Shown piece by piece: positions 20,433 to 39,578 of a DNA stretch of 64,000 bases. Origin of the DNA: an uncultured Eubacteriales bacterium (lineage in GTDB: Bacteria; Acidobacteriota; Aminicenantia; Aminicenantales; Aminicenantaceae); the NCBI GenBank assembly GCA_964410125.1, contig CAYPGQ010000014.1:938-64937 (forward strand), read 5' to 3'. A program made the position numbers and the translations under genes. Positions within the stretch are counted from its first letter, which is position 1. Each line of letters begins with the position of its first letter. Below the pieces are notes generated by a model. The model was given only the letters and a program-made list of their open reading frames with translations. It was not told the origin of the DNA and ran no database searches.

Positions 20433-21111
20433 TTAGCTTTTCTCCTTTTTTGATCCATGAATCATCTCATTAAAGTCTTTCAGCCGGTAACTTTGCCCAT
20501 CGATATTTAAGATATGGGCGGTAGAGCTCGCAAAACTGGTTCGAAAAATGGGGGTCATATCCCAAAAGCTTGGATCCTCTTCCTTATACTCTGTCCAAAG
20601 GAGCTGGCGGGTCACCCCTTTTTTCCTCAGCTCTTGGTGGACGAGCGCCCAATCCGGAGTCCTCTTGCCAGCCTCCTTCAAAACCGATGGAAAAAGACGC
20701 TTTTCCAACTCCTCATCCCCGAGTCCTTCAGGAAGAGGCCAACCGATTCCAGCCTCCGACGCTCTGCACAAATACTCCCGTACCGTCTCCTTCCCGACGG
20801 AACAGGCTCTGGCAATGGCCCGGATGGATAGACCACCCGAGTGTTTCAATCTGAGTACTTCTCGAATTTTTCGCATGGATAACCTCTTTCTGGCCATCTT
20901 TTCCTCCTCTTTTTTTTGGAAGGTACATGATGGCCTATTCGTTTTAAGTTATCCAGCACCGCTTCACTTGATATCGATTCCGGAGTCCGGAAAAAAGTGG
21001 CCGGAATCAACCGGAACAGGTGGCCGGATTGCTCCGGAATCAGTGGCCGTAATGAATCGGAATGGGTGGCCGTAATGAATCGGAATGGGTGGCCGCTTTC
21101 GACCGGAATAT
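20433..21111 (-). mobile_element. IS21-family remnant: istA N-terminus fused in frame to istB C-terminus, plus terminal 23-bp periodic repeats
   Basis: In the 154-aa ORF (20433..20897), the IstA-type HTH region runs into an IstB-type tail (AHILNIDGQSYRLKD). Upstream lie five GTGGCCG-cored repeats. Confidence 0.65.
20997..21111. repeat. Five direct repeats with exact 23-bp period (GTGGCCG core at 20997, 21020, 21043, 21066, 21089)
   Basis: I read these directly from the sequence. The two central units are identical (gtggccgtaatgaatcggaatgg). They are typical multi-site IS21 termini. Confidence 0.8.
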
Positions 21112-21284
21112 GCAACGATATATCTTGAGAAAGTTTCAGCACAATCAAAGAGCCCACTGAAGTCGTTAAGTACTAGTTCAGCCTTGGAATCAATATAAAA
21201 AGGCAAATTTAAACTTCTATTTTTGTTCATCTGAAATACTCCTGAGATATGAATTAGAAAAAGTCATATGTAAAATAGGTATCA

Positions 21285-24182
21285 CTAACTATTAAATATT
21301 ATTCGATATTTCGCAACACGATTATCTATTGCTGGTTTGGTTCCCTCAAGAACGTCAACAATTTTTTTACATATATTAGGATTTTCTAAAGCTCCAGATA
21401 TATAGTCTAAATTGTAGTTTCCTTCTTTATCAAGTGATGCATAGATCACTTGTTCAGCATCACAAACTACTGCAAGGTTTGGGTTATGAGTAACTATAAT
21501 AATTTGACGTTTCTTTTTTGCTTCTTTGATACAATCAACTAATAGTTGATATACAGTTTGATTATCCAGATTCCCTTCAGGTTGATCAATAATTAAAGGA
21601 AGCATACTGTTATCAATTAATAAATAAAATATCAAGAGCAGTGTACCTCTTTCCCCAGGTGATAACTGCTCCAGAGGCTTGCCTTCCCATCGTAATACAT
21701 ATCTTGGTTCTAAATAATCCAATCCATAAATAAACAGATATAAATCACCAGGTGAAAAGGTTTGACGAACTTGATCTTTGATGAGTACAGGCGGATTTTC
21801 ATCATAACGATAATCATGATGAAGGTATTCGATCACTTTATTAATAAATTCTTCTACTCCTAAATCTTCATCTAAATTTGCTGCTGCAACTAAATGATTT
21901 ATTGTTTGTTTCCCTTCTGATTCACCATGAAAAGAACCTCGTCGCTGTTGATTTATAAATTCTAAAAATCTATCACTGAACTTACGTGGGACCAATGAGA
22001 CACGAAATTCTAATCCAAAGCGTTCTTTTGCTAAAGGATGTTTATCTATGAATTCTTGAATAGGAGCGTAAAGTTCTTCATATACCCTTAGTAATGTTTT
22101 TTTTACTTGAAAGATTCTTTTCGCACATTCTTGCTGTTTCTTTTTAGCTGTTGATAGTTTTTCTGGAATTCTTTCTATCTCGTCTTGAAGCGCTTTGTAA
22201 TGTTCTAATGTTTTTGGAGTATTTACGTTGCCAATCAAATTTTTTAATTGTTCTTCCCATTTTGCTTTTATTGCTAAATATCTTTGGTATTCTTTATTTG
22301 GACGATCAAGCTTTTCCCGCAATATATCAATCTTGTTTTTTATTTTTTTTCTTTGGAAAATTAAACTCTGATCGTTATCTTCATCTTTTAGTTGTATATC
22401 GAGATTATCTTTTTTCGCATGTAAATTTTTTTCAATCTTTTTTAGCTTAGATAGATCAATATTTACTTGGATTAAATCATTTTTTGAGATTCCTAATTTC
22501 TCACAATCAGTAGAAATTTCTTCGAAAAGATTATCAACCTGCAATTTAAAGTTTCCAATTTTTCTGTATATTTTTTCAATCAGACGAATACTCAAGACAT
22601 CCCTGTTTAGTTCATCCTGTTTTTTCTTAATATCTTTATCTACATCAACAATTTGAGATGCATATTCTTCAATTTTGTTTGAAATATCATCGATTTCTTT
22701 TTTCCTTTTTGGATCTGTTTCTGGTTTTTTTACCTCAACTGGCATTATGCTTTTATGAGCATCAATCTCTTTTTCTATATCCCTAAGTTCTGATTTAAGC
22801 GAGTCAATATAAATATCTGTAGATTTTTCCTCAAGTTTTACCACCTCAAGTGTTTCCCTTCTTAAATCTTCAATTATTTGTCGAATTTTTGCTTGTGATT
22901 CTGTTGTCCGGAATTCGACAAGTTCATCAAGCGAAGCTTTTCCGAGTCGTTCTTCTGTCGGTATACGTGAAAATATTACCTGCTTTAGTTCCTCATGAAA
23001 TCTTCCCTCTTGTCCTCCCTTTAGCTCATCACAAATATCCTCTAAATAGAATTGAGGAATGTATCGTACAGATTCGGTTAAAGTCGAATCGAAACGATCA
23101 TCAAGATTTCTCCTTATTGTTTCACCACTTTTCCAAGTAAGTTCAGCATCAAAGTGGGAGGATTTGTTTGCTCTAGGATGTCGAAATTGATCTTCATGTA
23201 GGAATGAAAAAGATTCTTCATGTGGGCAATTCCCCATTAATCCAATAACATCAGAGAGTGCGCTTTTTCCATTTCCTTTATTTCCAATGATAGATATTAG
23301 CCCAAAATTGAATTCTAATGAAACTCCATCAAACCAATCTTCTCCAAGAGATGAAGAGCTTCTCTTTTTTATTTTTAAAGAATCAATGTATTTAGTTTTA
23401 TTTTTTTCAACATGATCAAGAATCTGAGGTCGTTCACCAAGAAAAACTCTCTCGATAGGCTCATTAACAACTTGTCTCAGACCATAAAACGTCGCGTCTG
23501 CTTTCAACCAACAAGGTAACGATACTCCATAATCATTAACATTGTGGTTATCAGATCCAATAATTATAGGAAGGTTTAATCCCGTTGCTGGGAAGACAAT
23601 TTTTATGTACCTCTCAATGTCTTTCAACTGTCCTATCTCAAGAAAATCAATAAACATTTTTGTTATATCGAACTTAATCCTCTGTTGAAATTGTTCTCTA
23701 TTCTCAATTCCCTCAACTGAATTAGATTTTCCTCCAGCATGAATTGAAATTAGCCCTCCTAATCCAGATATTATCTTGTGTGCATCTGAAATGGGAACAT
23801 AAACACTTTCATTCCCTCCTCTTGCTTTAATACCTTCAGGAGTTAGTTTCAAGGCGCCTTTAAGTGTATCCCATATATGATCTAAATCCATTGATTCAGA
23901 GAATAATCCAATATAGTGAATTGGCTTATCTCCAAGTTCAGAACGAAGTTCAATTCCAGGAATTACACAAAATTTCCCTTTGCTTAATTTTCGTATATTT
24001 TTAATTCTTTTAACATCTATAAAATGATGATCTGTGATTCCCACAACTTTGACACCTGCATCAATCAGTACATCTGTAATTTGTTCATCTGACACAGTAT
24101 CATTTTCATAATCGAAAGATGAAGGAGTGTGAAAATGTAAATCCCATTTTCGCCATATTGATCCTAGTGAAAATTCTTCCAT
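21285..24182 (-). CDS. PHP-domain + ABC/SMC-like ATPase with long coiled coil (Ppl/PplA-like)
   Basis: N-terminal PHP motifs are DLHFHTPSS, GITDHH and GSDNHN. It has Walker A GNKGNGKS and a coiled coil of about 350 aa that is K/E-rich. The C-terminus carries LSPGERG, Walker B LIIDQPEGNLD and VTHNPN. Confidence 0.65.
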   Translation of the reverse strand: MEEFSLGSIWRKWDLHFHTPSSFDYENDTVSDEQITDVLIDAGVKVVGITDHHFIDVKRIKNIRKLSKGKFCVIPGIELRSELGDKPIHYIGLFSESMDLDHIWDTLKGALKLTPEGIKARGGNESVYVPISDAHKIISGLGGLISIHAGGKSNSVEGIENREQFQQRIKFDITKMFIDFLEIGQLKDIERYIKIVFPATGLNLPIIIGSDNHNVNDYGVSLPCWLKADATFYGLRQVVNEPIERVFLGERPQILDHVEKNKTKYIDSLKIKKRSSSSLGEDWFDGVSLEFNFGLISIIGNKGNGKSALSDVIGLMGNCPHEESFSFLHEDQFRHPRANKSSHFDAELTWKSGETIRRNLDDRFDSTLTESVRYIPQFYLEDICDELKGGQEGRFHEELKQVIFSRIPTEERLGKASLDELVEFRTTESQAKIRQIIEDLRRETLEVVKLEEKSTDIYIDSLKSELRDIEKEIDAHKSIMPVEVKKPETDPKRKKEIDDISNKIEEYASQIVDVDKDIKKKQDELNRDVLSIRLIEKIYRKIGNFKLQVDNLFEEISTDCEKLGISKNDLIQVNIDLSKLKKIEKNLHAKKDNLDIQLKDEDNDQSLIFQRKKIKNKIDILREKLDRPNKEYQRYLAIKAKWEEQLKNLIGNVNTPKTLEHYKALQDEIERIPEKLSTAKKKQQECAKRIFQVKKTLLRVYEELYAPIQEFIDKHPLAKERFGLEFRVSLVPRKFSDRFLEFINQQRRGSFHGESEGKQTINHLVAAANLDEDLGVEEFINKVIEYLHHDYRYDENPPVLIKDQVRQTFSPGDLYLFIYGLDYLEPRYVLRWEGKPLEQLSPGERGTLLLIFYLLIDNSMLPLIIDQPEGNLDNQTVYQLLVDCIKEAKKKRQIIIVTHNPNLAVVCDAEQVIYASLDKEGNYNLDYISGALENPNICKKIVDVLEGTKPAIDNRVAKYRIIFNS

Positions 24183-24221
24183 TTTGTACTCCTCAATTCA
24201 ATGTTCAAGAATTTTTTTTTA

Positions 24222-24416
24222 TTACTTAGATTTATAAAATAAATTGTGCTGATCGTTAAAAAGGTAAAATCTGATGGGCTTAGTTTGTATTCCAACATCA
24301 CACTCCTCCCCTTTCTTTTTGCTTTTAAGCTCATTGGAGTTATATGAATTATGTAATTTTCCAATTGTATAATCTTGAGAGGCTGACCACGAGAATTCGT
24401 TTTTAAACTCTTTCAT
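24222..24416 (-). CDS. Possible small ORF (64 aa) between two large genes
   Basis: This is an ORF only. There is no SD and no recognisable motif. Confidence 0.15.
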   Translation of the reverse strand: MKEFKNEFSWSASQDYTIGKLHNSYNSNELKSKKKGEECDVGIQTKPIRFYLFNDQHNLFYKSK

Positions 24417-24464
24417 TTCAACTACTTATATAATATTGAAAAAGTAGCCCCCCTCCCCTATTCA

Positions 24465-26315
24465 TTATCTCGTCAGCACTTTGACAATTCTATCCTCATT
24501 CAGGAGTCCATTTCTCATAAGAAGTCGAACTGGAAATTCTTTGATTGTAGAATTTTTGAATCCTTCTAGAATTTTCATCAATCCTCTCGAGGTAAGCAGG
24601 GAAAGATTCAGCTCATAATCGTATTCACACGCTGCGATGAAGTCGTCCGAGAACTCATTTGCCACAATTATTGCTTTTGTCACATGAAAATTTTTATTCT
24701 CACAAAGATTCACATAGGATTTCAGTTGTCTCGATACGGAGGTGTATTGGTTATATTCTTTATCCTTTTTTGTTTTGCATTCGACCAACATGAGATCTTG
24801 ATTTCCAAGATTGATTAATACATCAATTTTATGGCGATTAGTATTGAGGCTATTTTTCAATTTGTTGTCTGTATTGAATCCAAGTCTATTGAATATCTTT
24901 TGTGTGACTTTTTCATACAACAGCCCCAATTCGATCTCTTTGACAAACAGCCCCTTATCATGCAACGTTTTTAAGTCTCTTCGTCCGATCGCATCGAAAT
25001 TTTCGATATAAAGATCATCGATGTCCCTATAGTTTTCGATGATATTTTTAATCAAATTTCCTCTGGATTTAATGTTGTGACCTTTACAAAATTTTAGAAG
25101 TTCATCCCGGATAAAAAGATAGAGAATGTCTCTAGGCTTGATGTTATATTTGTTCAGCAATTCAGAAGACATCACGTTTTCATCTTGAAGCTCGAATTCT
25201 TCTTTTATTTTGTTGTTGATAATTGGGAAGGTGCCTGCCAGATCTTTTAAAAGGCTGTTAAAGCCATCACGGGAAAGGCTAATCGTGTCTTCTTTTTCAA
25301 GGTCATTGAAGTATTTAATCAAATTCGCGACTTTTTCTTCTAGAGAACGTCCGAACTTTTCAATATCGACTTCAAGCCCTTTCTCCATGAGTGCCTGAAG
25401 TCTTTTAGACTTTTCGGTTTTGGATGTTCCTGGCCGGAATATAATTTCTGTAAGCAAATTTGTCGCATTAACTCCTTGATTTAAGATCTCCTGAATCTTC
25501 CTTTTCCTGCTCCATTTTCTATTGATATTATGTTTTTTCGTTATGAGGTTGATCTCAGGATCGCTTAGGTTTTTCAGAATCCGCCTTAAAAATTTATTGG
25601 GAAGCTCTATTCCAGCTATTTCTCTTAATAACCAAATAAACTCATCAGGAACGTATAAAGTGTTTGTTTTTCTATTGAAAAAGATGATTCCGGATTCTTT
25701 CAATTCATTCAACAAATCATCAACCTTAAATTTTTCTAAAGGGATTACAGTATGGGAAATCCACCTGACCTCTTCGTTGGATAATTCTAGATTTTTTTCC
25801 AGAGTTTGAAGAATGGATTTTTCTTCCCAGGATAGCTGTTTTTCCATATTTCGGATGAGATCGTTTTCATAAGCAGTCTGCACACAGTTTTTATAAATTC
25901 GGTAATCTCTTTTTCGGTTTTCCTCTAAATCTCCGTCCCCAATATCTAGAAGGCGCTTGAAATATTTAATGTTTGCTTCTAGTTTTGTATGCTCATTGTT
26001 ATAGAGTTTTAGGAACCATTCCCTTGTCATCATCGAGTTTCCGTCCCTTATCAGAATATCCACAAGAATGTCGAGTTGGTAATCACTGAATTTTATTCTT
26101 TCTTGAAGATGTTTTTTATATTGGGGCGTAAGAAGTTCGAAGAGTTGAACAATGTTTTCATCATCCACATTTTTCAGCTGTCCATCCCCTTTAGATAATA
26201 TTTTATCGATTTTGGGCTTTGATTTTCTTAGGTCACAACAAAAGCTGTCAAGAATTTTTAAAAATGCGCTCTTCTCGATCTGATTGACCGTGTCAAGAAC
26301 ATCGATAAGTCTCAT
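24465..26315 (-). CDS. Protein with SAP/HeH-like repeats and C-terminal Mrr-type PD-(D/E)xK nuclease domain
   Basis: The C-terminus reads HKIDVLINLGNQDLMLVECKTKK (D...ExK), then QLKSY and IIVANEFSDDF. It has its own TTGACA-17-TAATAA promoter (26349..26377) and an AAGGAGG SD. Confidence 0.55.
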   Translation of the reverse strand: MRLIDVLDTVNQIEKSAFLKILDSFCCDLRKSKPKIDKILSKGDGQLKNVDDENIVQLFELLTPQYKKHLQERIKFSDYQLDILVDILIRDGNSMMTREWFLKLYNNEHTKLEANIKYFKRLLDIGDGDLEENRKRDYRIYKNCVQTAYENDLIRNMEKQLSWEEKSILQTLEKNLELSNEEVRWISHTVIPLEKFKVDDLLNELKESGIIFFNRKTNTLYVPDEFIWLLREIAGIELPNKFLRRILKNLSDPEINLITKKHNINRKWSRKRKIQEILNQGVNATNLLTEIIFRPGTSKTEKSKRLQALMEKGLEVDIEKFGRSLEEKVANLIKYFNDLEKEDTISLSRDGFNSLLKDLAGTFPIINNKIKEEFELQDENVMSSELLNKYNIKPRDILYLFIRDELLKFCKGHNIKSRGNLIKNIIENYRDIDDLYIENFDAIGRRDLKTLHDKGLFVKEIELGLLYEKVTQKIFNRLGFNTDNKLKNSLNTNRHKIDVLINLGNQDLMLVECKTKKDKEYNQYTSVSRQLKSYVNLCENKNFHVTKAIIVANEFSDDFIAACEYDYELNLSLLTSRGLMKILEGFKNSTIKEFPVRLLMRNGLLNEDRIVKVLTR

Positions 26316-26596
26316 ATTATCCTCCTTATGCTGACATCAACGTAAATATTATTAGTCGGATAATTTGCAAATGTCAAATTTTACTGAAACAACCTCCCTT
26401 AAAAAAACAAGGCCACATCTTAGGTATTACGCAATTTATAATTTATGTAAATCACCGTTTAAGGTGATTTTGAGGGGGATATTGCATAAATAAAGATATC
26501 TAAGGACCGAAGGCCGTGTCATACCGTTTCTTCGGCAATACATGGGGATAATCTCCTGAGCGAAGTGCAATGTTTTTTCCTATGCGAAGCCCATAT

Positions 26597-29035
26597 TTAA
26601 ATTATTGCTTGGATTTTAATAAACTGCTGGAATTTTTCTATACACTTTTCAATATTGTTTTCTTTTATTTTTTCTACTTCTCTGCACCATTTTATTGCCT
26701 TTTTTTCAAGAGAGAGGTTTTCAATTTCCATCCACCAATTGGGCAATATCACATGTCTTCTCATTTCTAAGGAGTTTTCAACCTTTCCAATATTTGACAC
26801 ATGAATTTGACCTCTTTGAATTCCTTCGAAACTAGAGGCAAAAAATTCGAGGCTCCGAAAACCGTTTAAAGGCAATAAATCATGAAATAGTTGGAGCATG
26901 GGTTTTTGAATTTTGCTAATAGGGCCCCATTTCGAGTTGAGAAGAGAGGTCATTAAATAGACCTGTTCTGTTTTTAGCTTGTCTTCTTGATATCCTTCAA
27001 AAGTTTTATATTCTTTTATGCTGTAAACTTTATTTTTATAAGCATCTCTATCCATATTAATATTTACATTAATTATTTTCTTGACTGCTTTTATTGCATA
27101 ATCCCAGTGGCTGGCTTCGGTCAAATCAAGTTCAATAATCGGACCATTAAGACGAGATACAAAATCAGAACCTTTAGTGATTTTTTTACTTTTATCATCA
27201 GAGGACAGTTCATCCATTCGGCTGGTTGATGCAAAAATCCATACTCCAGGGGTCAAACGGTATGTTTTGCCGTCTTTCATAAATTTTCCATCCCACATAG
27301 GGCTGAGCAGCAGCCCAATAGCACTGTGCCCCTCAATTTCAGCATTAATTTCATCTATGAAAATCAATGTCCTTTTCTGAGTTCTGGCTTGAATCGAGGC
27401 AATAGTTGCTAAACATTCAATGAGGTCTTGATTTTCTGACATTTGTGCAATGGAGAATTCAAGGAATTCCATATCAAAATGATCTGCGAGACATTTTGCT
27501 AAATAGCTTTTCCCCCAACCTGGAGGTGAACTTAAAAGGCAGCTCAAGGAATGTCTAAGTGTTTTTTTGTTATTGAATTTTGCTATTTCAGAAACAAGAT
27601 GATTTATCGCATCACGCTTTGGTCCCCCTACACAAATGTATTTGGCCAGTGTCCCCTCACCCCGCCACAATTGCAAAACCTCTGAGATCGTTCCATTATC
27701 AGACATTAGTTGGATAGCTCCTATGTTTTCAGCCGAGGAATTCCAATCATCCCAGAGTTTTTCGTATTCTTCAATTTCGACTTTCTTATCGGAATGAGTA
27801 GTAATATTTAGTGCTTCTAAAGCTTCAGAATAGTCACCATAAAGATAAAGCTCTTCCTGATTCCATTTCTTGCTGGCTTTTTCACTCCAGTAATGAGCAG
27901 CAAGAAGAGCTTTGTAGCATTCGTCACCGAAATTATTGATAATTTTCCCTCTTTCTTGAGAAAAATCTGCATATAATCTCTGGGCAATAAGAGATCCATA
28001 AAATATTGTAGTTCTTCCTAAATTAATGAGCTGTTTCTCTCCCGGAGGTTGATGAATGCTGTAACACATATTTCTATCTTTAGCGAACACTGTGTTTTTA
28101 TCTAGAAGCACCGCAGCTCTCATGGAATTAATTCCTGATTTATCCCTTTTTGAGCCATGTTTATACGTTGTATCGCAAGTGAGTTCACCTAGAAGCTCCA
28201 AAGCTGCATGACTGAGGTGCTTCCCATGCCACCATCTTCTTTCTCCTTTTTTGTGTTCAGCAAATTTAAAATCTACAACAATCATATCAATTGCCCTTTT
28301 ATTCTGATTTAAAACTTCCAACCAGCCAGGATTATCAATTTTAGTACGCACATACCATTTGATAGCCGGTCTATTTCTGAAGATGCTCAGCAATTTTTTT
28401 ATGGTTTCTTCATTTATCACTCCAGCAGCATGATCTTCAATTACCAATGCAACTACATTAATATCGCTAGATTTGAGTTCTGTCTCTAGCATTTTAAGAT
28501 TTATATTCATAGAGGCGTCCAATACCCAGTCAAAGCGGTAAAGTTGATGTGGTTTTGCGCCTCCATATCCCTCGAAACATCGGATGATTCTATTTGTTGA
28601 TGTATTTGAATCAAGAGAGAGATTTCTCAACTTTACATCATAGGTGCAATTCTTTTTAGAATAGGGACACTTATCTTTTATTACCGGTCTTAGGCTGGTA
28701 AGAGTATACGGAGATAGTAGTTTTTTATCCGTATGATGTGGGCAAAGCGTGCATTTAATTAAATCATCATCAACAGGATTCCAGACGCCATATCCAAGAA
28801 ATTCAAATTGAGTTCCTTCGTTTTTTTTAAAATAAGATCTGAGTATTTCTATGAGTGTAGCTGCACCACATAGATTTGTAATTTTTTGATCCACACTGCT
28901 GTGTCTTGATAGATAATGGATTTCTCCTGGAGAGGAGCTGTGATATAAATCTTGTCTTGTGACAAGCCAATTTTCATCAATAAACCAATCCCCTATTACA
29001 ACCACCGTATCAACTTTTTTATTTTTTTTAGGCAT
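26597..29035 (-). CDS. HldE/PfkB-like (degenerate) domain fused to a classical AAA+ ATPase
   Basis: The N-terminus has VVVIGDWFIDENW, NLCGAATL and VIEDHAAGV, which resemble ribokinase-fold kinases, but the GAGD site is replaced by NLGRTT. The AAA+ part has Walker A PPGWGKSYLAK, Walker B LIFIDEINAE and sensor-1 VWIFASTS. The start is placed at the ATG behind a GAGGGG SD. Confidence 0.5.
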   Translation of the reverse strand: MPKKNKKVDTVVVIGDWFIDENWLVTRQDLYHSSSPGEIHYLSRHSSVDQKITNLCGAATLIEILRSYFKKNEGTQFEFLGYGVWNPVDDDLIKCTLCPHHTDKKLLSPYTLTSLRPVIKDKCPYSKKNCTYDVKLRNLSLDSNTSTNRIIRCFEGYGGAKPHQLYRFDWVLDASMNINLKMLETELKSSDINVVALVIEDHAAGVINEETIKKLLSIFRNRPAIKWYVRTKIDNPGWLEVLNQNKRAIDMIVVDFKFAEHKKGERRWWHGKHLSHAALELLGELTCDTTYKHGSKRDKSGINSMRAAVLLDKNTVFAKDRNMCYSIHQPPGEKQLINLGRTTIFYGSLIAQRLYADFSQERGKIINNFGDECYKALLAAHYWSEKASKKWNQEELYLYGDYSEALEALNITTHSDKKVEIEEYEKLWDDWNSSAENIGAIQLMSDNGTISEVLQLWRGEGTLAKYICVGGPKRDAINHLVSEIAKFNNKKTLRHSLSCLLSSPPGWGKSYLAKCLADHFDMEFLEFSIAQMSENQDLIECLATIASIQARTQKRTLIFIDEINAEIEGHSAIGLLLSPMWDGKFMKDGKTYRLTPGVWIFASTSRMDELSSDDKSKKITKGSDFVSRLNGPIIELDLTEASHWDYAIKAVKKIINVNINMDRDAYKNKVYSIKEYKTFEGYQEDKLKTEQVYLMTSLLNSKWGPISKIQKPMLQLFHDLLPLNGFRSLEFFASSFEGIQRGQIHVSNIGKVENSLEMRRHVILPNWWMEIENLSLEKKAIKWCREVEKIKENNIEKCIEKFQQFIKIQAII

Positions 29036-29260
29036 GTCCCTTTCCCCTCTTGAATAATTTTTCAAAATGAGAGCCTTTTGCTGTATAGCTACTCATCACT
29101 CTTTTTTTGATCGGAAATTATGTCTTTTGCCCTTAAACAGAAACGTCTAATTGGACATTTTTCCCCCTAAAACCGAAAAAATTCAAAGGGTTTAAATTTC
29201 GTCTGTCAGCTTTTGAATATGGTTGGATAAACGGTCTATGTCAAGCAATCCCAGTGAAAT

Positions 29261-29295
29261 GTCACTTTATTTCACTTTATTTCACTTTATGTCAC
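29261..29295. repeat. Tandem 10-bp repeats (gtcactttat ttcactttat ttcactttat gtcac) with an inverted half-site AGTGAAAT at 29253..29260
   Basis: I read these directly. They lie about 200-260 nt upstream of the AAA+ gene start and overlap the stop of the 29292..30455 gene. Confidence 0.7.
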
Positions 29296-30455
29296 ATTAA
29301 AATTTCTAAATCTTTCAAACTTGATAAGTCATTTTTTTCTGCCTCAACTCTTTTGTAACAATGGATCAGATAATTCCCATCTGCATCCGTTGTCCTGAAA
29401 AATATGAAATTTTCAGAAATTTTTAGCAAATCACAACCCAGATTCATCTGAACCAGGATTTTTCCTTGATCGTCGATCAGCCAGTAATCCATAATTCCTT
29501 CTTCACTTCTCTCAGGATTCGAAATGAGAATATTGCCATCGGGTGTCAGAGAAATCCCGCTCAAATTCGGCTTTTTATCATAAACGGAGTTTTTATACTT
29601 TTCTACGACCTTTCCGAATCTCTCATACCAGGCCTTATCGGTTTGAACTTCTTTCCTCATTTTTCTCCAATCTTCAAGATCCTTATTTATTACTTTCTCG
29701 GGTTCAGGCAGCTTTGATTCGATTTCGTTGACCATTTTTCCTTCATAGTCATAAACCTTAAGATTTCGACTCAATCCATCTGCAAAAACAATCGAATTTC
29801 CTTTCCAGGGTATCCAGGCGAAAGCGGGAAAAAAGGGAAGCCATTGATCAGCCCCGCTATTACCGCTAGAGATTGATTTGAAATAATCTGTTTTGATGAT
29901 TTCAGAAACGACTTCCCCGTTTGAATTTATGTGGGTGAGAGCTTGAGGATAGCGATATAAAAAGTAGTCCTTTTTCATTTCGGGCTTAAACATGTACCAG
30001 ATTTCAAGCAGAAATCCTCCATTATCCAAGGAAAGAGAATTGGCAATTCCGAATATTTCGTTAATTTCAGGATGCAATACTTTATGGAGTTCACCTGATA
30101 GCTCCATTATAGTGATCCATCTGTGTCCCCCAAAAGATTCCGTGAAGCAAAGTCTTCGGTCGTGAGTGAATCCAAAGTTTGCCCCTTCTGCTCTTTGAAT
30201 TTCGCCTGGCCCCTGGCCTTTGCCACCGATCCTTCTTAGATACTTTCCGTCAGGAGAATAGACTTTTATAAAGGCATCACTACGATCATAAATATAGATA
30301 TTCCCGTCAGGCCCTTCCATGATTTGGCGAGGATAAATAAGAAAACCATCACCTTCCTCATTCCCGAGAATAAAATGTCTTTTATCAGAGGCGGGATATG
30401 CCGCCAGACTAATAATTAGTACCAAACAGATAAGCAGGCATGTTCTTTTTATCAT
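29292..30455 (-). CDS. Six-bladed beta-propeller family protein, secreted
   Basis: It has a signal peptide and the GKGQGPGEI motif. It is a paralog of 37670..38806 and 39579..40592. Confidence 0.6.
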   Translation of the reverse strand: MIKRTCLLICLVLIISLAAYPASDKRHFILGNEEGDGFLIYPRQIMEGPDGNIYIYDRSDAFIKVYSPDGKYLRRIGGKGQGPGEIQRAEGANFGFTHDRRLCFTESFGGHRWITIMELSGELHKVLHPEINEIFGIANSLSLDNGGFLLEIWYMFKPEMKKDYFLYRYPQALTHINSNGEVVSEIIKTDYFKSISSGNSGADQWLPFFPAFAWIPWKGNSIVFADGLSRNLKVYDYEGKMVNEIESKLPEPEKVINKDLEDWRKMRKEVQTDKAWYERFGKVVEKYKNSVYDKKPNLSGISLTPDGNILISNPERSEEGIMDYWLIDDQGKILVQMNLGCDLLKISENFIFFRTTDADGNYLIHCYKRVEAEKNDLSSLKDLEILM

Positions 30456-30629
30456 TTTTACCCTCCTTCTTAATATAATACGAATCTTATCTGAATTTTA
30501 TTCCCTATCGCTCTTTTTTTTTACAGGTCGCAAATAAAAAATCAGTAATTATAAAAAATATTGATTTTTGGCACGGAGAGTTATCAAGTGGAATCGCCCG
30601 GGAGTAAAATGCCGCTTTAACCATTTACT

Positions 30630-31312
30630 CTAAATCTTTGCCGAACTAATCGCCTTCCCAGTCTCGTATGTGAATAATTCTATTCCATTGAACTGTCCTC
30701 CGCTTCCCTCCTCGAGCCAACCTCCGGTATTGAACATCGTCACATTTAAGCTTTGGTCGGTGAAAGGCTGAATAACCAGCCGTTTTGAATCCTTTATTCC
30801 AATCGGTCTATGAGAATGGCCGAAAATGATCATTTTTGGATTGACTGGGATGTTCAGGCTGTTTTCCTTATTCAGGCTTTCGATCTCCGCATTGCTGGAT
30901 TTGTAGTAATCGATCATTTTTTGATGGGTATCAGGTTTATACTCCCAATTCTCATCTTTCCTGGGAGAAGAATCAGGCCTTTTTTCTATGCACTTTTTAA
31001 GTATGCATTTGGCAAAATATATGCCAATTTTTATGAGCCAGTGTAATGGATTGTACCAGTTGAATTTGAAAGTATCTTTTTTGAGAGCCTTTTCCAGATT
31101 ATTGACGTATCCCATTATTTTTTTTGAATGGCTACATCGATCACATCGCCGAGCATGACCAGGTAGTCGTTATTTGTGCCGCAAGCTTCTCTGAATTCAG
31201 GGTATTTTGGCCCAAGAATTGGATTGCCGTTAGAATCGAGCGCGGCCAGTTGGCTGGTGCCATCCCCGAAATGAGTGTCTGATGTTATAATAATTTTCAT
31301 TGGCCCCTCCAT
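30630..31312 (-). pseudogene. Metallophosphoesterase split into two ORFs (copy 1)
   Basis: The DTHFGD and LGDVID motifs are in the N-terminal ORF and GHSHRP is in the C-terminal ORF. The frames are offset by -1 at an A8 tract. It has a 104-nt deletion relative to copy 2. Confidence 0.6.
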
Positions 31313-31431
31313 TATGGATATGCGGAAAAGAGGGGGATTTGATGTGCTTTTAAAACAGGAGAGATGATTGCTTAATTTGCCCCTCTAATACTGCTTATCA
31401 TATAAATAGATAAGTTTTTGATGTGAAAATG

Positions 31432-31698
31432 TCAAGGAAAAATTTGGATAAGAATTCTGGATTTTCCGCAATTTCCAATGCAAGAATATCCGGGTCCTGC
31501 AGGTTTGGCTTCTACGACTCCGATGGCTTTTCTGTTGGCGAATAAGGCATAATCGACGGGGCCGACTTTTATGGGGAACTCGCGGATGGCGATCCCTGGG
31601 CCGGCACCTAGATTGATATTTAAGCGATCTTGGATAATCCAGTCGGCTTTTTGGAGATGTTTATCGATATCCTGTCTGGCTTGTTCTTCCGGTTTCAT
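31432..31698 (-). pseudogene. Type I restriction enzyme HsdR N-terminal fragment
   Basis: The HSDR_N-like pattern is EQARQDIDKHLQKADW...VDYALF...GVVEAK. It is cut off after about 70 aa where the duplicated block begins. Confidence 0.6.
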
Positions 31699-31732
31699 TT
31701 GATTTTGATTAAGTCGATTCCCAGGAGATTAG

Positions 31733-31759
31733 ATTATAGAAATAAAGAGGTTTTGGCAA
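31733..31759 (-). promoter_or_regulatory. Portable promoter cassette copy a: TTGCCA-N15-TATAAT
   Basis: It sits inside a conserved block of about 55 bp also found at 38857..38883 and 42758..42784. In every case it reads into a minus-strand gene. Confidence 0.5.
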
Positions 31760-31839
31760 GCGTTATGCGGAGATTACCAAGACTTTGGCTTAAAAATCTT
31801 TCTGCCATCATCAAGAACAACAGGATTCGGGAATTGATG

Positions 31840-31868
31840 AAAAAAACCCTTGGATCGTGACCCAAGGG
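31840..31868 (-). terminator. Rho-independent terminator (minus strand)
   Basis: The stem-loop is CCCTTGG-N8-CCAAGGG followed by T7 on the minus strand. A second hairpin is at 31872..31892. Confidence 0.5.
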
Positions 31869-32118
31869 TGGCTAGTGAAGTAATTTCACTAGGGATGATT
31901 CTAATAATAAAATAGTGCAGCGTGTTCCATTTGTCAATAACAAAAAATATGGATTAGTCTTTGTTATCATCATGTCTGGCTATTTATAAGAACGAAAAAG
32001 TTGAAGAAAAATTCTCATTTACATTTATTCTGACATTCAACAAAATCCTTATTTCCCTTTTTTTAATCAGCCTTGACAGAATCAATCCAAATAATTAGCT
32101 TAATTCCCCTAGAGATAT

Positions 32119-32223
32119 AAAAAAAGCGACTGGGTGTAAGGCCAGTTTCGGCCTTTCGATAAGACGCTTGGCGACTCGTCCCAGACGCATAATAATAATA
32201 GTGAAATGATTTCGAAAAGTCAA
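32119..32223 (-). ncRNA. Candidate small RNA gene, copy 1 (own promoter + about 70-nt structured transcript + U-tract)
   Basis: TTGACT (32218..32223), a 17-nt spacer and TATTAT (32195..32200) precede a conserved structured segment that ends in U7 (32119..32125). Confidence 0.5.
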
Positions 32224-32282
32224 TAAATATCTAAATTTTATGTGCATACAGAACTTTATGAAGGTCGATTATGACATCTGCG

Positions 32283-33446
32283 TCAGGTAGTACGAAAAGC
32301 AACAGAATAGTCCTCGTTTTCGTCATAACCGTACCTTTTTAAGAACGAAGGAATTGCGCTGTAATTCTCACCAACATATTCGGCAAGTTTTCCTTTGGAT
32401 ATTTTCTCAAGAAAAAAAGCTTTAATCGCCAACAAAATGTATTTAGTAGAAAGATATGGTTTTTCTATTTCTGCCCAATCCGTGTTCCGTTGTTTTTTGT
32501 CAATGTCTCTGATGATCCCCTTCTCGAGTTCTTCTTGAATGCCCTCTTTCCTCAGAAGGTCAAGGTTAACCAATCGCCATAGTAAAGCTTCGATCGAAAC
32601 ATCGAAATCTCGAGCAATATCGACCAAATTCAGATATGAAATCGAGTCCTTACCGGTCTTTTTCTCAAACGCATCTCGAACCTCTTTCTCTGGTATAAGT
32701 AAAGATGCTGCAAAGACGTCAGCTAATTGTTCAACGCGGCTTTTTCCTTTTGTATTGTCTTGGTATATCTCTTCAGGATCGAAATCTTCCCAGGTTATTA
32801 AGTGAAAGAATTCGTGCGTGAGGTCGAAATTGCGTCTCCAGGGTGCATCATTAGCGTTAATCAGGACAGCCATTCCAAAATCCTCATCTATTGTCGAGCC
32901 TCCAGAAATGTCATCATCCATCGGAAGAAAAATAATCTTGATACCCATTTCTTCCTCTAAGATTTTTGACAACGAACATGCCGGACGCAATCCCAAATTC
33001 AGAATGCTAGCGTATTTAAAGGCGAGGTTTTCGACACATTTGAAAGCATCCTGGGTAAGCAATTCATGTTTATCAATATTGATTTTTGATCCTGTTTTTG
33101 AAACATCAGGCTCACCGAGAAGTTTTAGGAGATTTTGGTAACGCTCACATATCGAAATGAATTGCCGTTCGATAATTGTTTTTTGAGGGCTTGTTTCTGG
33201 CCTTCTCCAGAGGATCCTGACTTCTTTCTGAGGAACGTCAAGATTCAGGAAATACTCAATGTCACGGCCATAGATTTTAGCTAATTTAGCAAGTTCCCAG
33301 GCTTTTACCTCCCTCTCCCCTGCCTCAATGCTGCTTAATGTCTGGTAATTGTTGAATCCTAATTTTTCTGATACTTCCTTTAGAGTAAAATCCAGAGACT
33401 CCCTTTCTCGCTTAAGAAGATTTGCCAGTTTCTTTTGGATATTCAT
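32283..33446 (-). CDS. XRE-family HTH fused to ImmA/IrrE-type zinc metallopeptidase (copy 1)
   Basis: The HTH is LKEVSEKLGFNNYQTLSSIEAGERE and the HEXXH motif is HEFFH. The start is set at MNIQKK (ATG 33446); the upstream part of the ORF is promoter DNA. Confidence 0.8.
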   Translation of the reverse strand: MNIQKKLANLLKRERESLDFTLKEVSEKLGFNNYQTLSSIEAGEREVKAWELAKLAKIYGRDIEYFLNLDVPQKEVRILWRRPETSPQKTIIERQFISICERYQNLLKLLGEPDVSKTGSKINIDKHELLTQDAFKCVENLAFKYASILNLGLRPACSLSKILEEEMGIKIIFLPMDDDISGGSTIDEDFGMAVLINANDAPWRRNFDLTHEFFHLITWEDFDPEEIYQDNTKGKSRVEQLADVFAASLLIPEKEVRDAFEKKTGKDSISYLNLVDIARDFDVSIEALLWRLVNLDLLRKEGIQEELEKGIIRDIDKKQRNTDWAEIEKPYLSTKYILLAIKAFFLEKISKGKLAEYVGENYSAIPSFLKRYGYDENEDYSVAFRTT

Positions 33447-33540
33447 TTTTGCTACCGAATTAAATATATATGATAATATTATATTTGTCAAATAGAATAT
33501 GATAATAATATAAGATATTATTATTCTACATTTTAAATAA

Positions 33541-33556
33541 GGTTCATCGCAAAAAT
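33541..33556. repeat. Left arm of 16-bp inverted repeat GGTTCATCGCAAAAAT
   Basis: It is the reverse complement of 34224..34239. The two arms bracket the glycine-zipper gene and its promoter. Confidence 0.75.
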
Positions 33557-33587
33557 GAGTGCCTAGCAAGATAAGATTTAGGGGTAA

Positions 33588-34145
33588 TTATTGAAAGTTC
33601 CGAATCCGCGCTTTTTTGCGCAGTTTATACAGTGCTTTTCTTATTTCTGTTTCTGATTTTCCCTCGATTTGGACTATTTTATCTGATCCTTCAAGTGCGC
33701 CAATTATTCCTCCAAGAATGGCTCCGGAAAGGCCGATATAAAAACCATAACCCAATGCTTTGTCCTTCGCTGTCATTATGGATAGGTCCATCCAAACACG
33801 ATGTCCCCACCACGTCCCATAACCAGGAGGATCGTCTCCTTCCACATAACCAATTAATGATCCAATAACGGCTCCACTTATTAATCCAATCCCTCCCCAA
33901 GCCAGACTTTTTGATTTCTTCACAATTTCAATAAGCTTAATCTCCCTGATATCAACAGATACATCGGCTCCTGATTCAGAATCCAGCAATAACAGAGAAT
34001 TCTCCTTTACAGCAATAAGCTCACCTATTGCATACTGCCCGTCTATTTTCTGGACTATGAGCTCTGATCCATTTTTCTTGGCATATAGATTTTCTGAAAA
34101 TGCAAATAAAGATAAAACCAAAAACAAAACTATGCATTTTTTCAT
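33588..34145 (-). CDS. Secreted glycine-zipper protein (copy 1)
   Basis: It has a signal peptide and GxxxG-rich stretches (GGIGLISGAVIGSLIG, GLSGAILGGIIGALEG), and a basic C-terminus. Confidence 0.55.
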   Translation of the reverse strand: MKKCIVLFLVLSLFAFSENLYAKKNGSELIVQKIDGQYAIGELIAVKENSLLLLDSESGADVSVDIREIKLIEIVKKSKSLAWGGIGLISGAVIGSLIGYVEGDDPPGYGTWWGHRVWMDLSIMTAKDKALGYGFYIGLSGAILGGIIGALEGSDKIVQIEGKSETEIRKALYKLRKKARIRNFQ

Positions 34146-34179
34146 TACTCCCCCAGCTTTATAGTAATTCCTCTCTTTT

Positions 34180-34208
34180 AAGATATGGTGTCAAAAGGCT
34201 TTTGTCAA
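34180..34208 (-). promoter_or_regulatory. Sigma70-type promoter TTGACA-17-TATCTT for the glycine-zipper gene
   Basis: The hexamers and spacing are conserved in copy 2 (42658..42686). Confidence 0.5.
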
Positions 34209-34223
34209 TCTTATCGGGTACTA

Positions 34224-34239
34224 ATTTTTGCGATGAACC
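34224..34239. repeat. Right arm of 16-bp inverted repeat (ATTTTTGCGATGAACC)
   Basis: It is the reverse complement of 33541..33556 and lies 15 nt upstream of the -35 box. Confidence 0.75.
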
Positions 34240-34325
34240 CGAAAAAATGAAGGATATACTCATGTAAAAGATAAAATCACTGACTTGATTCGAAAAGAAG
34301 TCATAATCCGCATCAAAAAGTGACT

Positions 34326-35112
34326 CTAAATCTTTATAGAACTAATCCCCTTCCCGGTCTCATATGTGAACAGCTCTATTCCATTGAACTGACCTTCGCT
34401 TCCCTCTTTGAGCCAACCTCCGGTATTGAACATCGACACATTTGAGCTTTGGTCCTTGAAAGGCTGAATAACCAGCCGTTTTGAATCCTTTATTCCAATC
34501 GGTCTATGAGAATGGCCGAAAATGATCATTTTTGGATTGACTGGGATGTTCAGGCTGTTTTCCTTATTCAGGCTTTCAATCTCAGCATTGCTGGATTTGT
34601 AGTAATTGATCATTTTTCGATGGGTGTCAGGTTTATACTCCCAATTTTCATCTTGCCTGGGAGAAGAATCAGGCCTTTTTTCTATGCACTTTTTAAGCTT
34701 GCATTTGGCCCAACATATTAGTATTTTTATGGGCCAGTGCAATGGATTGTACCAATTGAATTTGAATGTCTCTTTTCCGAGAGCCTTTTCCAGATTATTG
34801 ACGTATCCCATTATTTTTTTTGACTTGTTGGCTTTAAATTCATATTGAATGTCTCTAATAACATCGGATAAGGGGCCTGCCTGACCGACTCCGGAGCTTG
34901 AAAGCTGAGCTAATGGAAAATTCAAATATGGCTACATCAATCACATCGCCGAGCATGACCAGGTAGTCGTTATTTGTGCCGCAAGCTTCTACGAATTCAT
35001 GGTATTTTGGTCCAAGAATTGGATTGCCGTTAGAATCGAGCGCGGCCAATTGGCTGGTGCAATCTCCGAAATGAGTGTCTGAAGTGATGACAATTTTCAT
35101 TGGCCCCTCCAC
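34326..35112 (-). pseudogene. Metallophosphoesterase split into two overlapping ORFs (copy 2)
   Basis: It has the same motifs as copy 1. The N- and C-terminal frames are offset by +1 near 34930. It retains the 104 nt that copy 1 lacks. Confidence 0.6.
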
Positions 35113-39569: not shown

Positions 39570-39578
39570 GAAATTGCA

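What the first reader, a model, noticed from the sequence alone, without database searches (positions are those of the whole stretch)
26597..29065. Degenerate HldE/PfkB-like kinase fold fused to a classical AAA+ ATPase, an architecture I cannot place in any described system
The first 400 aa or so of this 822-aa protein carry, in the right order, landmarks of ribokinase-fold sugar kinases, closest by eye to the heptose kinase domain of HldE/RfaE. These are VVVIGDWFIDENW (cf. VGDxMLDRYW), SSSPGEIHY, NLCGAATL (cf. GGAAN) and VIEDHAAGV (cf. SDYxKG). Where the catalytic DxxGAGD anion hole should be, the sequence is INLGRTTIF. That suggests a ligand-binding module that is not catalytic. It is followed by a canonical AAA+ core (PPGWGKSYLAK, LIFIDEINAE, VWIFASTS) and a C-terminal helical domain of about 200 aa. 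The gene sits in a defence-type neighbourhood, directly upstream of a nuclease-domain gene. A sugar- or nucleotide-sensing AAA+ switch is an attractive hypothesis.
Basis: partly seen in the sequence, partly recalled or inferred. Interest (0 to 1): 0.8.

Follow-up and report, generated by a model that had tools for sequence, protein, structure and literature searches.

The report
Heptose-kinase-like domain fused to AAA+ ATPase
This gene encodes a previously undescribed but widely conserved bacterial protein, in which a sugar-kinase fold that has lost its kinase residues is fused to an intact ATP-driven motor; it works without the neighbouring "nuclease" gene and its role is still unknown.

Summary
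Window 26597-29035 (- strand) encodes an 812-aa protein, starting at the ATG at 29035 rather than the TTG at 29065. A high-confidence AlphaFold model (pLDDT 90, pTM 0.90) has an N-terminal ribokinase fold. Its best PDB match is the heptose-7-phosphate kinase HldA (Foldseek E 1e-11, TM 0.68-0.72). An intact AAA+ module follows. Sequence profiles cannot see the kinase relationship, and no Pfam, NCBIfam, PADLOC, PDB or literature entry names the family.

The fusion is conserved: 313 clusters at 50% identity, and 10 of 10 distant members tested carry the AAA domain. It is rare, with 8 hits among 185,579 species genomes. HldE-type sugar-side motifs are near-invariant. The phosphoryl-transfer motifs (NxxE, GAGD) are replaced and vary across the wider family. 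A ligand-binding pseudokinase is therefore plausible but not shown.

The AAA+ module is not demonstrably "classical". It has no aromatic pore loop, a pre-sensor-1 hairpin and a sensor-2 arginine, and RuvB is its best fold match.

The proposed nuclease partner is refuted. It is absent from all 31 homologue loci, and synteny with a 99.6%-identical contig breaks 151 bp after the stop codon. Defence association is weak: 4 of about 22 loci lie next to defence genes, 2 lie in mobile elements, and the rest sit among housekeeping genes.

The parts
26597..29035 (-). Complete CDS, 812 aa plus stop (ATG at 29035; the TTG at 29065 listed by the ORF finder is probably not the start)
   Evidence: (identical 812-aa P0001)
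27836..29035 (-). Ribokinase/PfkB-fold domain, aa 1-400, closest to heptose-7-phosphate kinase HldA. Probable pseudokinase and ligand-binding module.
   Evidence: AF2 model. Foldseek HldA E 1e-11, TMt 0.68-0.72. Weak TIGR02198 rfaE_dom_I hit, E 0.013.
28967..28993 (-). GDWFIDENW (aa 15-23), an HldE-type GDxxxDxxW motif. D20 aligns with the ribose-binding D16 of E. coli ribokinase. G15, D16, W17, D20, E21 and W23 are 89-97% conserved in 148 family members.
28646..28753 (-). Four-cysteine insert (C95, C98, C123, C130; CxxC...CPYx6C) between helix alpha2 and the lid strands. Putative Zn knuckle, specific to this subfamily.
   Evidence: near-invariant in the close family; not conserved family-wide; lower pLDDT of 66-80
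28421..28438 (-). EDHAAG (aa 200-205; family consensus EDHGKG), equivalent to HldE SDYAKG. D201 is 99% and G205 is 95% conserved.
28007..28018 (-). GRTT (aa 340-343) at the N-terminus of helix alpha8, the position of the PfkB GAGD anion hole and catalytic Asp. No acidic residue here.
   Evidence: DSSP register of the model against the E. coli PfkB alignment; conservation; not conserved in distant members
27641..27835 (-). Linker subdomain, aa 401-465, with W431, G439, W457 and R458 conserved at 97-99% across the wider family
27116..27640 (-). AAA+ alpha/beta core, aa 466-640. Walker A SPPGWGKS (27506-27529). Walker B LIFIDE (27350-27367). Beta-hairpin before the sensor-1 strand. Sensor-1 T604. 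KGSDFVSR with Arg finger R628 (27152-27175).
   Evidence: Pfam PF00004 E 2.8e-9; models; Foldseek RuvB/Skd3/Lon/ClpX/Vps4; invariants
26600..27115 (-). AAA+ lid (sensor-2 R727 in NGFRSLEFF, 26855-26857) plus a small C-terminal subdomain with conserved N748, R760-H761 and W768
29216..29300 (-). Putative own promoter region: TTGACA-17-CATATT (29244-29216), preceded by three tandem AAATAAAGTGA repeats (29255-29300)
   Evidence: Consensus match only; the number of promoter-like sites in the region is not above chance.

Best explanation
This is a stand-alone accessory gene with a patchy spread across phyla, consistent with horizontal transfer. It encodes a single-polypeptide machine with two working parts. 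(1) An N-terminal domain descended from HldA/HldE-type heptose-7-phosphate kinases. It keeps the sugar-side pocket residues (GDxxxD, CG in place of GG, DHxKG, K232, and several invariant Arg/Asp in the lid). It has lost the NxxE Mg/phosphate motif and the GAGD catalytic base. It most likely binds a phosphosugar- or nucleotide-like ligand without phosphorylating it. (2) A catalytically intact AAA+ ATPase: Walker A and B, sensor 1, Arg finger and sensor-2 Arg are all invariant. It is of RuvB/HCLR-like build and has no aromatic pore loop. The model predicts the two parts in one fixed arrangement. The proposed mechanism is that ligand occupancy of the pseudokinase pocket gates assembly or ATP turnover of the AAA+ ring, which then remodels a target that is not yet known. 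Shown: the fold, the architecture, its conservation, the intact ATPase motifs and the independence from neighbouring genes. Inferred: loss of kinase activity, ligand binding, the coupling between the two parts, and the target.
For: Fold: AF2 pLDDT 90, pTM 0.90; Foldseek top hits HldA, then ribokinase family. Architecture is conserved: 74 close homologues, 313 clusters at 50% identity for the N-domain alone, and 10 of 10 distant members scanned carry AAA after it. Residue pattern in 148 members, 59 of them below 30% identity: sugar-side and lid residues D16, D20, H40, C56-G57, T147, R149, R152, R167, D169, D201, G205 and K232 are 89-100% conserved, whereas the GRTT and D255 positions are not. 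This fits a conserved binding pocket without a conserved phosphotransfer site. HldE-like motifs line up with E. coli HldE. ATPase motifs are invariant. Stand-alone status: no neighbour is shared between independent loci. The gene is often flanked by oppositely oriented housekeeping genes. The high pTM indicates a fixed N-domain/AAA+ arrangement.
Against: No ligand, ATPase activity or phenotype has been measured. Profile methods cannot align this region. Invariant D16, D20, D201, H202 and K232 could form a new catalytic site. No effector domain or target is identifiable. The AAA+ clade could not be settled by sequence.
Confidence: 0.4

Rival explanations
1. The N-domain is still an enzyme: an atypical kinase or other transferase or hydrolase that uses a rebuilt active site (D16/D20/D201-H202/K232/Arg cluster). 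The AAA+ module delivers or regulates its substrate.
For: The pocket-side polar residues are extremely conserved, 97-100% over 148 members down to below 30% identity. This level is typical of catalytic sites as well as binding sites. The ribokinase-like fold hosts other chemistries, for example the YjeF dehydratase (background knowledge).
Against: The two motifs that carry out phosphoryl transfer in all PfkB kinases are missing. NxxE is replaced by DxKL and GAGD by GRTT. These replacements are not conserved across the wider family. The glycine-rich TLGxxG turn is replaced by LLDDNT.
Confidence: 0.2
2. It is a single-gene anti-phage or anti-plasmid defence protein (an abortive-infection type switch). 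The pseudokinase senses an infection-derived metabolite and the AAA+ motor is the effector or activator.
For: Distribution across phyla is patchy and the family is rare: 8 loci in 185,579 species genomes. The window copy lies in a low-GC island with a TrlF/Ppl-like ATPase and an AriA/PtuA-like ATPase. L020 lies directly after a complete NsnABC system plus Fic. L013 follows MTase + NsnA/PD-T4-2_A-like + HEPN. L008 is next to PDC-S01. L002/L003 lie in a conjugative element and L005/L006 among IS elements and ParDE.
Against: Only 4 of about 22 independent loci have a defence gene within 3 genes on either side. About 15 loci are plain housekeeping contexts. There is no PADLOC model hit, no recognisable effector domain, and no homologue on sequenced plasmids or phages.
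Confidence: 0.25
3. It forms a two-gene defence system with the downstream 616-aa nuclease-like gene.
For: The two genes are adjacent on the same strand in this window with a 281-bp gap. The 616-aa protein has a C-terminal D...ECK motif and a weak DruK PD-(D/E)XK hit at E 0.055.
Against: tblastn finds no homologue of the 616-aa protein in any of 31 loci that carry a family member. Clustering of neighbours finds no shared partner. Contig L001 is 99.6% identical over window 26446-34577 and carries the identical protein. It diverges completely 151 bp after the stop codon and has other genes there. A strong promoter-like site (11 of 12) lies in front of the 616-aa gene.
Confidence: 0.03
4. It is a housekeeping or stress-related nucleic-acid or protein remodeller akin to RuvB or RarA. 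The kinase-fold domain then serves only as an oligomerisation or partner-binding scaffold, with no small-molecule ligand.
For: RuvB is the best structural match of the AAA+ half. There are weak NCBIfam RuvB, RFC and RarA hits. hhalign to RarA gives the longest alignment and to RuvB a gapless beta2-alpha2 region. Most loci are housekeeping contexts. Ribokinase lids are dimerisation surfaces (background knowledge).
Against: The family is far too rare and patchy for a core function. All scores are far below family cut-offs, for example RuvB at 23.9 bits against a cut-off of 299. There is no RuvA-like or DNA-binding domain. The canonical sugar-binding positions would not need to stay invariant in a mere scaffold.
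Confidence: 0.12

Closest known systems
HldA / HldE domain I (D-glycero-beta-D-manno-heptose-7-phosphate kinase; PfkB/ribokinase family, PF00294)
   Same: It has the same alpha/beta fold with a beta-sheet lid and is the best structural match (Foldseek E 1e-11, TM 0.68-0.72). It shares the HldE-type motifs GDxxxDxxW and D[YH]xKG and a small-residue pair at the GG position.
   Different: There is no sequence-level membership: no PF00294 hit, TIGR02198 at 14.6 bits against a cut-off of 345, and hhalign probability 2.8%. NxxE and the GAGD catalytic Asp are replaced. It carries a 4-Cys insert and is fused to an AAA+ ATPase. It is not in an LPS-core operon.
RuvB and other HCLR-clade AAA+ ATPases (ClpX, HslU, Lon, ClpB/Skd3)
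   Same: These are the best structural matches of the C-terminal half (E 1.5e-7 and weaker). Shared features are a beta-hairpin before the sensor-1 strand, a sensor-2 arginine, and a RuvB-length beta2-alpha2 segment without an aromatic pore loop.
   Different: TM-scores are low (0.36). It falls far below the RuvB family cut-offs. There is no RuvA partner, protease domain or winged-helix domain identified. The N-terminal domain is unrelated.
Classical-clade AAA ATPases (Vps4, proteasomal Rpt, FtsH, Msp1)
   Same: These give the best sequence-level similarity, but only from Walker A to Walker B, about 70 residues. It is a Pfam PF00004 member.
   Different: The pore-loop-1 segment is deleted or replaced, with no aromatic-hydrophobic-Gly. 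A sensor-2 Arg and a pre-sensor-1 hairpin are present. A single Arg stands in place of the two-Arg SRH.
IetA (AAA+ ATPase of the Gao Iet defence system) and other defence AAA+ ATPases
   Same: It is an AAA+ ATPase that sometimes lies in defence islands. There is a weak PADLOC IetA hit (E 0.005, 48 residues around Walker A).
   Different: The hit covers the P-loop only. There is no IetS-like protease partner and the N-terminal domain is different.

Membership tests
PfkB/ribokinase family carbohydrate kinases (incl. HldA/HldE-I) | Ribokinase-like three-layer alpha/beta fold with a beta-sheet lid | tested here: met
   AF2 model. All top 50 Foldseek PDB hits are PfkB kinases, with HldA first.
PfkB/ribokinase family carbohydrate kinases (incl. 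HldA/HldE-I) | Recognised by the family's sequence models above their cut-offs | tested here: not met
   No PF00294 hit at E<=0.1. TIGR02198 at 14.6 bits against a cut-off of 345. Profile against PDB finds no kinase. hhalign against 7 E. coli PfkB proteins gives probability 2.8% over 38 columns.
PfkB/ribokinase family carbohydrate kinases (incl. HldA/HldE-I) | N-terminal substrate motif (Asp after beta1; GG dipeptide before alpha1) | tested here: inconclusive
   D20 aligns with RbsK D16. The GG position is C56-G57, conserved at 93% and 90%. The Asp is kept, but GG is only half kept.
PfkB/ribokinase family carbohydrate kinases (incl. HldA/HldE-I) | NxxE motif (Mg2+/phosphate) | tested here: not met
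   The beta10/alpha6 junction reads D255-F-K-F (consensus DxKL). The Glu position is Leu or Phe. Mapping is by secondary-structure register.
PfkB/ribokinase family carbohydrate kinases (incl. HldA/HldE-I) | DTxGAGD anion hole with catalytic Asp at the N-terminus of alpha8 | tested here: not met
   The sequence is INLGRTTIF, with Thr at the Asp position and no acidic residue in aa 337-346. Mapping is by secondary-structure register.
Classical-clade AAA ATPases | Walker A, Walker B and sensor 1 | tested here: met
   SPPGWGKS, LIFIDE and T604. Walker A/B residues are invariant and T604 is 93% conserved. PF00004 E 2.8e-9.
Classical-clade AAA ATPases | Aromatic-hydrophobic-Gly pore loop 1 between beta2 and alpha2 | tested here: not met
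   The alignment to Vps4 places a 5-residue gap at 'skwMG'. FtsH needs two indels there, while RuvB aligns without gaps.
Classical-clade AAA ATPases | No sensor-2 Arg; no pre-sensor-1 hairpin | tested here: not met
   R727 is invariant in the lid (NGxRSLEFF). DSSP shows hairpin E584-587/E590-593 before the sensor-1 strand.
RuvB family | Score above the family cut-off | tested here: not met
   TIGR00635 at 23.9 bits against a cut-off of 299.05.
RuvB family | RuvA partner | tested here: not met
   No neighbouring gene, RuvA-like or otherwise, recurs across independent loci in the all-against-all neighbour clustering.
RuvB family | C-terminal winged-helix DNA-binding domain | tested here: inconclusive
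   Structural similarity is only moderate (TM 0.36) and no winged-helix domain could be identified in the C-terminal subdomain.
Known or candidate anti-phage systems (PADLOC-DB v2.0.0) | Match to a system protein model | tested here: not met
   The only hit is IetA at E 0.005 over 48 residues.
Known or candidate anti-phage systems (PADLOC-DB v2.0.0) | Consistent location in defence islands | tested here: inconclusive
   4 of about 22 independent loci have a defence gene within 3 genes on either side, and 2 lie in mobile elements. No formal background comparison was done.
Two-gene AAA+/nuclease system with the 616-aa neighbour | Conserved co-occurrence of the two genes | tested here: not met
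   The partner appears in 0 of 31 homologue loci. Synteny with L001 breaks 151 bp after the stop codon.

The most novel reading that the evidence does not exclude
This is a new kind of single-protein sensor-motor. A heptose-kinase-derived pseudokinase detects a specific phosphosugar or nucleotide-sugar, for example a heptose metabolite or a phage DNA-modification precursor. It thereby switches on a RuvB-like AAA+ ring that acts as an autonomous anti-phage or anti-mobile-element effector. This would be the first ribokinase-fold sensor in prokaryotic immunity, and a bacterial counterpart in logic to ADP-heptose sensing in animals.
Probability: 0.15. Interest if true: 0.85.

Novelty: new variant of a known kind. 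Interest (0 to 1): 0.55.

Why it matters
The work defines a conserved, unnamed protein family of at least 313 clusters at 50% identity. The family comes from uncultured Zixibacteria, Aminicenantes, Desulfobacterota, Phycisphaerae, Ignavibacteria, Acidobacteria and others. It combines two very well understood folds in a way that appears in no database, solved structure or paper searched here. If the kinase-derived domain is a ligand sensor, it would add a new sensor class to AAA+ switches and a tractable example of how a metabolic enzyme becomes a regulatory pseudoenzyme. If it turns out to be defensive, it would be a new single-gene system. The analysis also removes a tempting but wrong two-gene 'ATPase + nuclease' model.

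Tried and rejected
- A profile HMM of the N-domain against PDB sequences found no kinase. hhalign against an alignment of seven E. coli PfkB-family proteins aligned only aa 6-43 at probability 2.8%. The kinase relationship is therefore visible by structure only.
- hhalign of the AAA+ half against E. coli RuvB, ClpX, FtsH and RarA gave only Walker A-B alignments with similar probabilities. The clade was not resolved.
- A search for a paralogue in the window failed. The 800-aa ORF at 57217-59619 is a MacB/FtsX permease and is unrelated.
- Foldseek against viral predicted structures returned only generic AAA+ hits.
- tblastn against PLSDB plasmids and INPHARED phages found no family member.
- Six literature searches found no description of the architecture.
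- The metagenome-contig scan added only 11 mostly short loci.
- A possible link to LPS genes was considered. L004 and L010 both lie near kdsD-lptC-lptB. It did not recur in other Zixibacteria or in other loci, so it is treated as coincidence or shared ancestry of the hosts.
- The PADLOC 'IetA' neighbour hit in L016 is a CDC48 homologue, not a defence gene.
- The short N-domain-only proteins, such as P0072, sit on contigs with many fragmented genes and are most likely frameshift artefacts.
- TrlG, the partner of TrlF in Photorhabdus, is an AlbA_2 + HATPase_c_4 protein (bioRxiv 10.1101/2020.06.02.129163). It does not correspond to the 616-aa ORF.
Full report
**Observation.** The ORF finder lists a 822-codon frame at 26597-29065 on the minus strand, starting at a TTG. 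The likely start is the ATG at 29035, which gives 812 aa. An identical 812-aa protein was called on an independent metagenome contig, and homologues begin at the same position. A purine-rich stretch precedes that ATG. The gene is real and under constraint: 62 full-length homologues at 34-61% identity share 43 invariant columns.

**What the protein is: the N-terminal domain.** Pfam sees only an AAA domain at aa 500-612 (E 2.8e-9). PADLOC sees nothing significant. NCBIfam gives only sub-threshold AAA+ hits plus a faint rfaE_dom_I hit (E 0.013, aa 160-222). An AlphaFold2 model built on the 62-sequence alignment is confident throughout (pLDDT 90, pTM 0.90). Foldseek against the PDB returns PfkB/ribokinase-family kinases for all top 50 hits. 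The Burkholderia cenocepacia heptose-7-phosphate kinase HldA comes first (E 1.3e-11 to 2.5e-10, TM on target 0.63-0.72), followed by human and E. coli ribokinase, Pfk-2 and LacC.

**The kinase relationship is not detectable by sequence profiles.** An HMM of the N-domain finds no kinase in the PDB. hhalign against seven E. coli PfkB proteins aligns only aa 6-43 at probability 2.8%. In that alignment G15 and D20 match G11 and D16 of ribokinase.

**Active-site reading (inference).** The order of secondary-structure elements in the model matches the ribokinase topology one-to-one. I used that register together with the E. coli PfkB alignment.
- GDWFIDENW corresponds to HldE VGDVMLDRYW.
- C56-G57 sits at the GG position.
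- EDH(G/A)(K/A)G corresponds to HldE SDYAKG.
- RTK232 corresponds to HldE DPKG.
- The NxxE motif position reads DxK(L/F).
- The TLGxxG turn reads LLD(D/K)NT.
- The GAGD anion hole at the N-terminus of helix alpha8 reads GRTT, with no acidic residue nearby.

In a 148-member alignment that includes 59 proteins below 30% identity, the sugar-side and lid residues are 89-100% conserved. These are G15, D16, W17, D20, E21, W23, G37, H40, C56, G57, T147, R149, R152, R167, D169, W170, D201, G205 and K232. GRTT, D255 and the four cysteines of the aa 95-130 insert are not conserved family-wide. This pattern fits a conserved binding pocket with no conserved phosphoryl-transfer site. It does not exclude a rebuilt catalytic site.

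**AAA+ half.** Walker A (SPPGWGKS), Walker B (LIFIDE), sensor-1 T604, the KGSDFxSR segment with R628, and R727 in the lid are invariant or nearly so. The ATPase is therefore presumably active. A separate model of aa 441-812 (pLDDT 91) matches RuvB best (E 1.5e-7), then Skd3, Lon, Vps4, ClpX and HslU, all with low TM of about 0.36.

At the sequence level only the Walker A-to-B stretch aligns. Vps4, Rpt and FtsH score best, and a 5-residue gap falls where the classical pore loop 1 lies. hhalign probabilities are FtsH 96%, RuvB 94% (gapless through beta2-alpha2), RarA 92% (the longest alignment, 104 columns) and ClpX 87%. The model shows a beta-hairpin between alpha3 and the sensor-1 strand.

The hairpin, the sensor-2 Arg and the missing aromatic pore loop are not classical-clade traits. 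They point to the RuvB/HCLR side, but the clade remains unresolved. The C-terminal '200 aa' are the AAA+ lid plus a small subdomain with conserved N748, R760-H761 and W768.

**Family and distribution.** An exhaustive phmmer search with aa 1-450 finds 313 cluster representatives at 50% identity (E<=1e-3). Most are 670-900 aa long. Ten distant ones were scanned and all carry an AAA-type P-loop domain after the N-domain (nine PF00004; P0186 only weak AAA_18/AAA_22 matches). No source gives any name beyond 'AAA family ATPase' or 'hypothetical protein'.

In one genome per species of GTDB (185,579 species) only 8 loci were found. They come from Zixibacteria, Phycisphaerales, Ignavibacteriaceae, Thermodesulfobacteriota, Deltaproteobacteria, Acidobacteria and Syntrophobacteraceae MAGs. 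Other members come from Aminicenantes, Krumholzibacteriota and Fimbriimonadaceae. There are no members on PLSDB plasmids or GenBank phages and no full-length analogue among viral predicted structures. Literature searches found nothing on this architecture.

**Neighbourhood: the nuclease partner.** In this window the gene lies at the edge of a low-GC stretch (31-36% against 40-47% in the flanks). That stretch also holds three other genes of interest:
- an AriA/PtuA-like ABC ATPase with a 303-aa partner (17949-20149);
- a TrlF-family PHP + ABC ATPase related to Ppl (21285-24182; NF045780 E 4e-186, PADLOC Ppl 5e-31);
- the 616-aa ORF.

However, the 616-aa ORF has no family assignment, only a weak DruK PD-(D/E)XK hit at E 0.055, and it is not a partner of the target. 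Contig L001 carries the identical protein and is 99.6% identical to window 26446-34577. It diverges completely 151 bp after the stop codon. All-against-all clustering of neighbours from 16 loci found no gene shared between independent loci. tblastn finds neither the 616-aa protein nor the TrlF-like protein in any of 31 homologue loci. Both genes have their own promoter-like sites (consensus matches only).

**Neighbourhood: defence association.** I examined about 22 independent loci.
- Defence genes within three genes on either side occur in four. These are this window; L008 (PDC-S01); L013 (type II MTase, NsnA/PD-T4-2_A-like GmrSD_N protein and HEPN); and L020 (complete NsnABC plus Fic).
- Two loci are in mobile elements: L002/L003/L031, a conjugative element with T4CP, ArdC, SSB and RepB, and L005/L006, with IS elements and ParDE.
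- The remainder are ordinary chromosomal contexts such as purLQ/PBP1C, asnB/yebC, recC/MCP, sat-aprAB and maf/feoB. The gene is usually solitary there and often lies between oppositely oriented genes.

This is at best a mild enrichment, and I did not compare it with a background.

**Mechanism.** The best-supported reading is an autonomous single-polypeptide switch. An HldA/HldE-derived domain keeps its substrate-side pocket but not the phosphotransfer machinery. It is rigidly coupled (pTM 0.90) to an intact AAA+ ATPase of RuvB-like build. I commit to ligand-gated control of the AAA+ ring as the most likely mechanism (confidence about 0.4). The ligand is probably a phosphosugar- or nucleotide-like molecule, given the ancestry and the invariant Arg/Lys/Asp set. 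The target of the motor is unknown.

The rivals are as follows:
- a rebuilt enzyme (0.2);
- a scaffold or nucleic-acid remodeller without a ligand (0.12);
- the two-gene nuclease system (0.03, refuted as a conserved system).

Whether the biological role is defence is a separate question, at about 0.25.

**Comparison and novelty.** By fold the protein works like a PfkB kinase fused to a RuvB/HCLR-type AAA+ ATPase. It is a member of neither family by their defining tests: sequence cut-offs, NxxE and GAGD for PfkB; cut-offs and partner for RuvB; pore loop and sensor-2 for classical AAA. It is PF00004-positive only. I rate it a new variant of a known kind, namely an AAA+ ATPase with a novel kinase-derived N-terminal module, and of moderate interest. 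The architecture is clean, conserved and undescribed, but no function is established and the most attractive part of the original story, the nuclease partner, is wrong.

Noticed in passing
window 21285-24182 (-): 965-aa TrlF-family PHP + ABC/SMC-like ATPase (NF045780 E 4e-186; PADLOC Ppl E 5e-31). TrlF is named after the Photorhabdus temperature-restriction locus (bioRxiv 10.1101/2020.06.02.129163). Here it lacks a TrlG-type (AlbA_2 + HATPase_c_4) partner.
   Followed up: partly
window 24465-26315 (-): 616-aa orphan ORF with a C-terminal D...ECK motif. There is only a weak DruK PD-(D/E)XK hit (E 0.055) and a weak CARF-model hit, with no Pfam, NCBIfam or PDB family. It is absent from all loci that carry relatives of the target. 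It may instead belong with the TrlF-like gene downstream.
   Followed up: partly
window 17949-20149 (+): AAA_15/AAA_21 ABC ATPase (PADLOC AriA 2e-39, PtuA 6e-22), overlapping by 4 bp a 303-aa ORF without any family. This looks like a two-gene defence candidate of the PARIS/Septu type.
   Followed up: partly
window ~16000-30000: Low-GC stretch (31-36% against 40-47% in the flanks) that holds the ATPase pair, the TrlF-like gene, the 616-aa ORF and the target. It looks like a horizontally acquired island.
   Followed up: no
window 26445-26486; L001 8092-8133 and 10083-10124: A 42-nt sequence containing the hairpin AAATCACC-ttaaac-GGTGATTT lies exactly at the point where synteny with contig L001 ends. 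In L001 it occurs twice and brackets about 2 kb of small ORFs. It may be a recombination or insertion site.
   Followed up: partly
window 29255-29300 (-): Three tandem copies of AAATAAAGTGA lie immediately upstream of a -35-like TTGACA in the target's 5' intergenic region. They may form an operator.
   Followed up: no
window 30600-43300: Segmental duplications at 82-91% identity of a module encoding a 185-aa protein, an HTH + Peptidase_M78 protein (PADLOC RmrA/CapP-like), small ORFs, a 161-aa protein and DUF5128 six-bladed beta-propeller lipoproteins. Dispersed 110-160-nt repeats also occur at 35.8, 37.4, 43.1, 54.7 and 61.5 kb.
   Followed up: partly
L004 5701-7736 and L010 15625-18420: Two family members that are only 35% identical to each other both lie within 0.3-5 kb of a kdsD-lptC-lptB LPS cluster in related hosts (LptB 77% identical). 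This is curious given the heptose-kinase ancestry. It was not seen in other loci.
   Followed up: partly
L028 1289-4037 and L032 4006-6754: In one lineage (37% identity to the target) three co-oriented, tightly spaced genes directly precede the family member. They are a 431-aa retropepsin-like aspartyl protease with a CarboxypepD_reg domain and two proteins without family (225 and 254 aa). This may be a lineage-specific operon.
   Followed up: no
L020 1983-5050: A complete NsnABC system (PADLOC NsnA 7e-137, NsnB 1.5e-111, NsnC 5e-91) lies immediately upstream of a 1003-aa family member, with a Fic gene nearby.
   Followed up: partly
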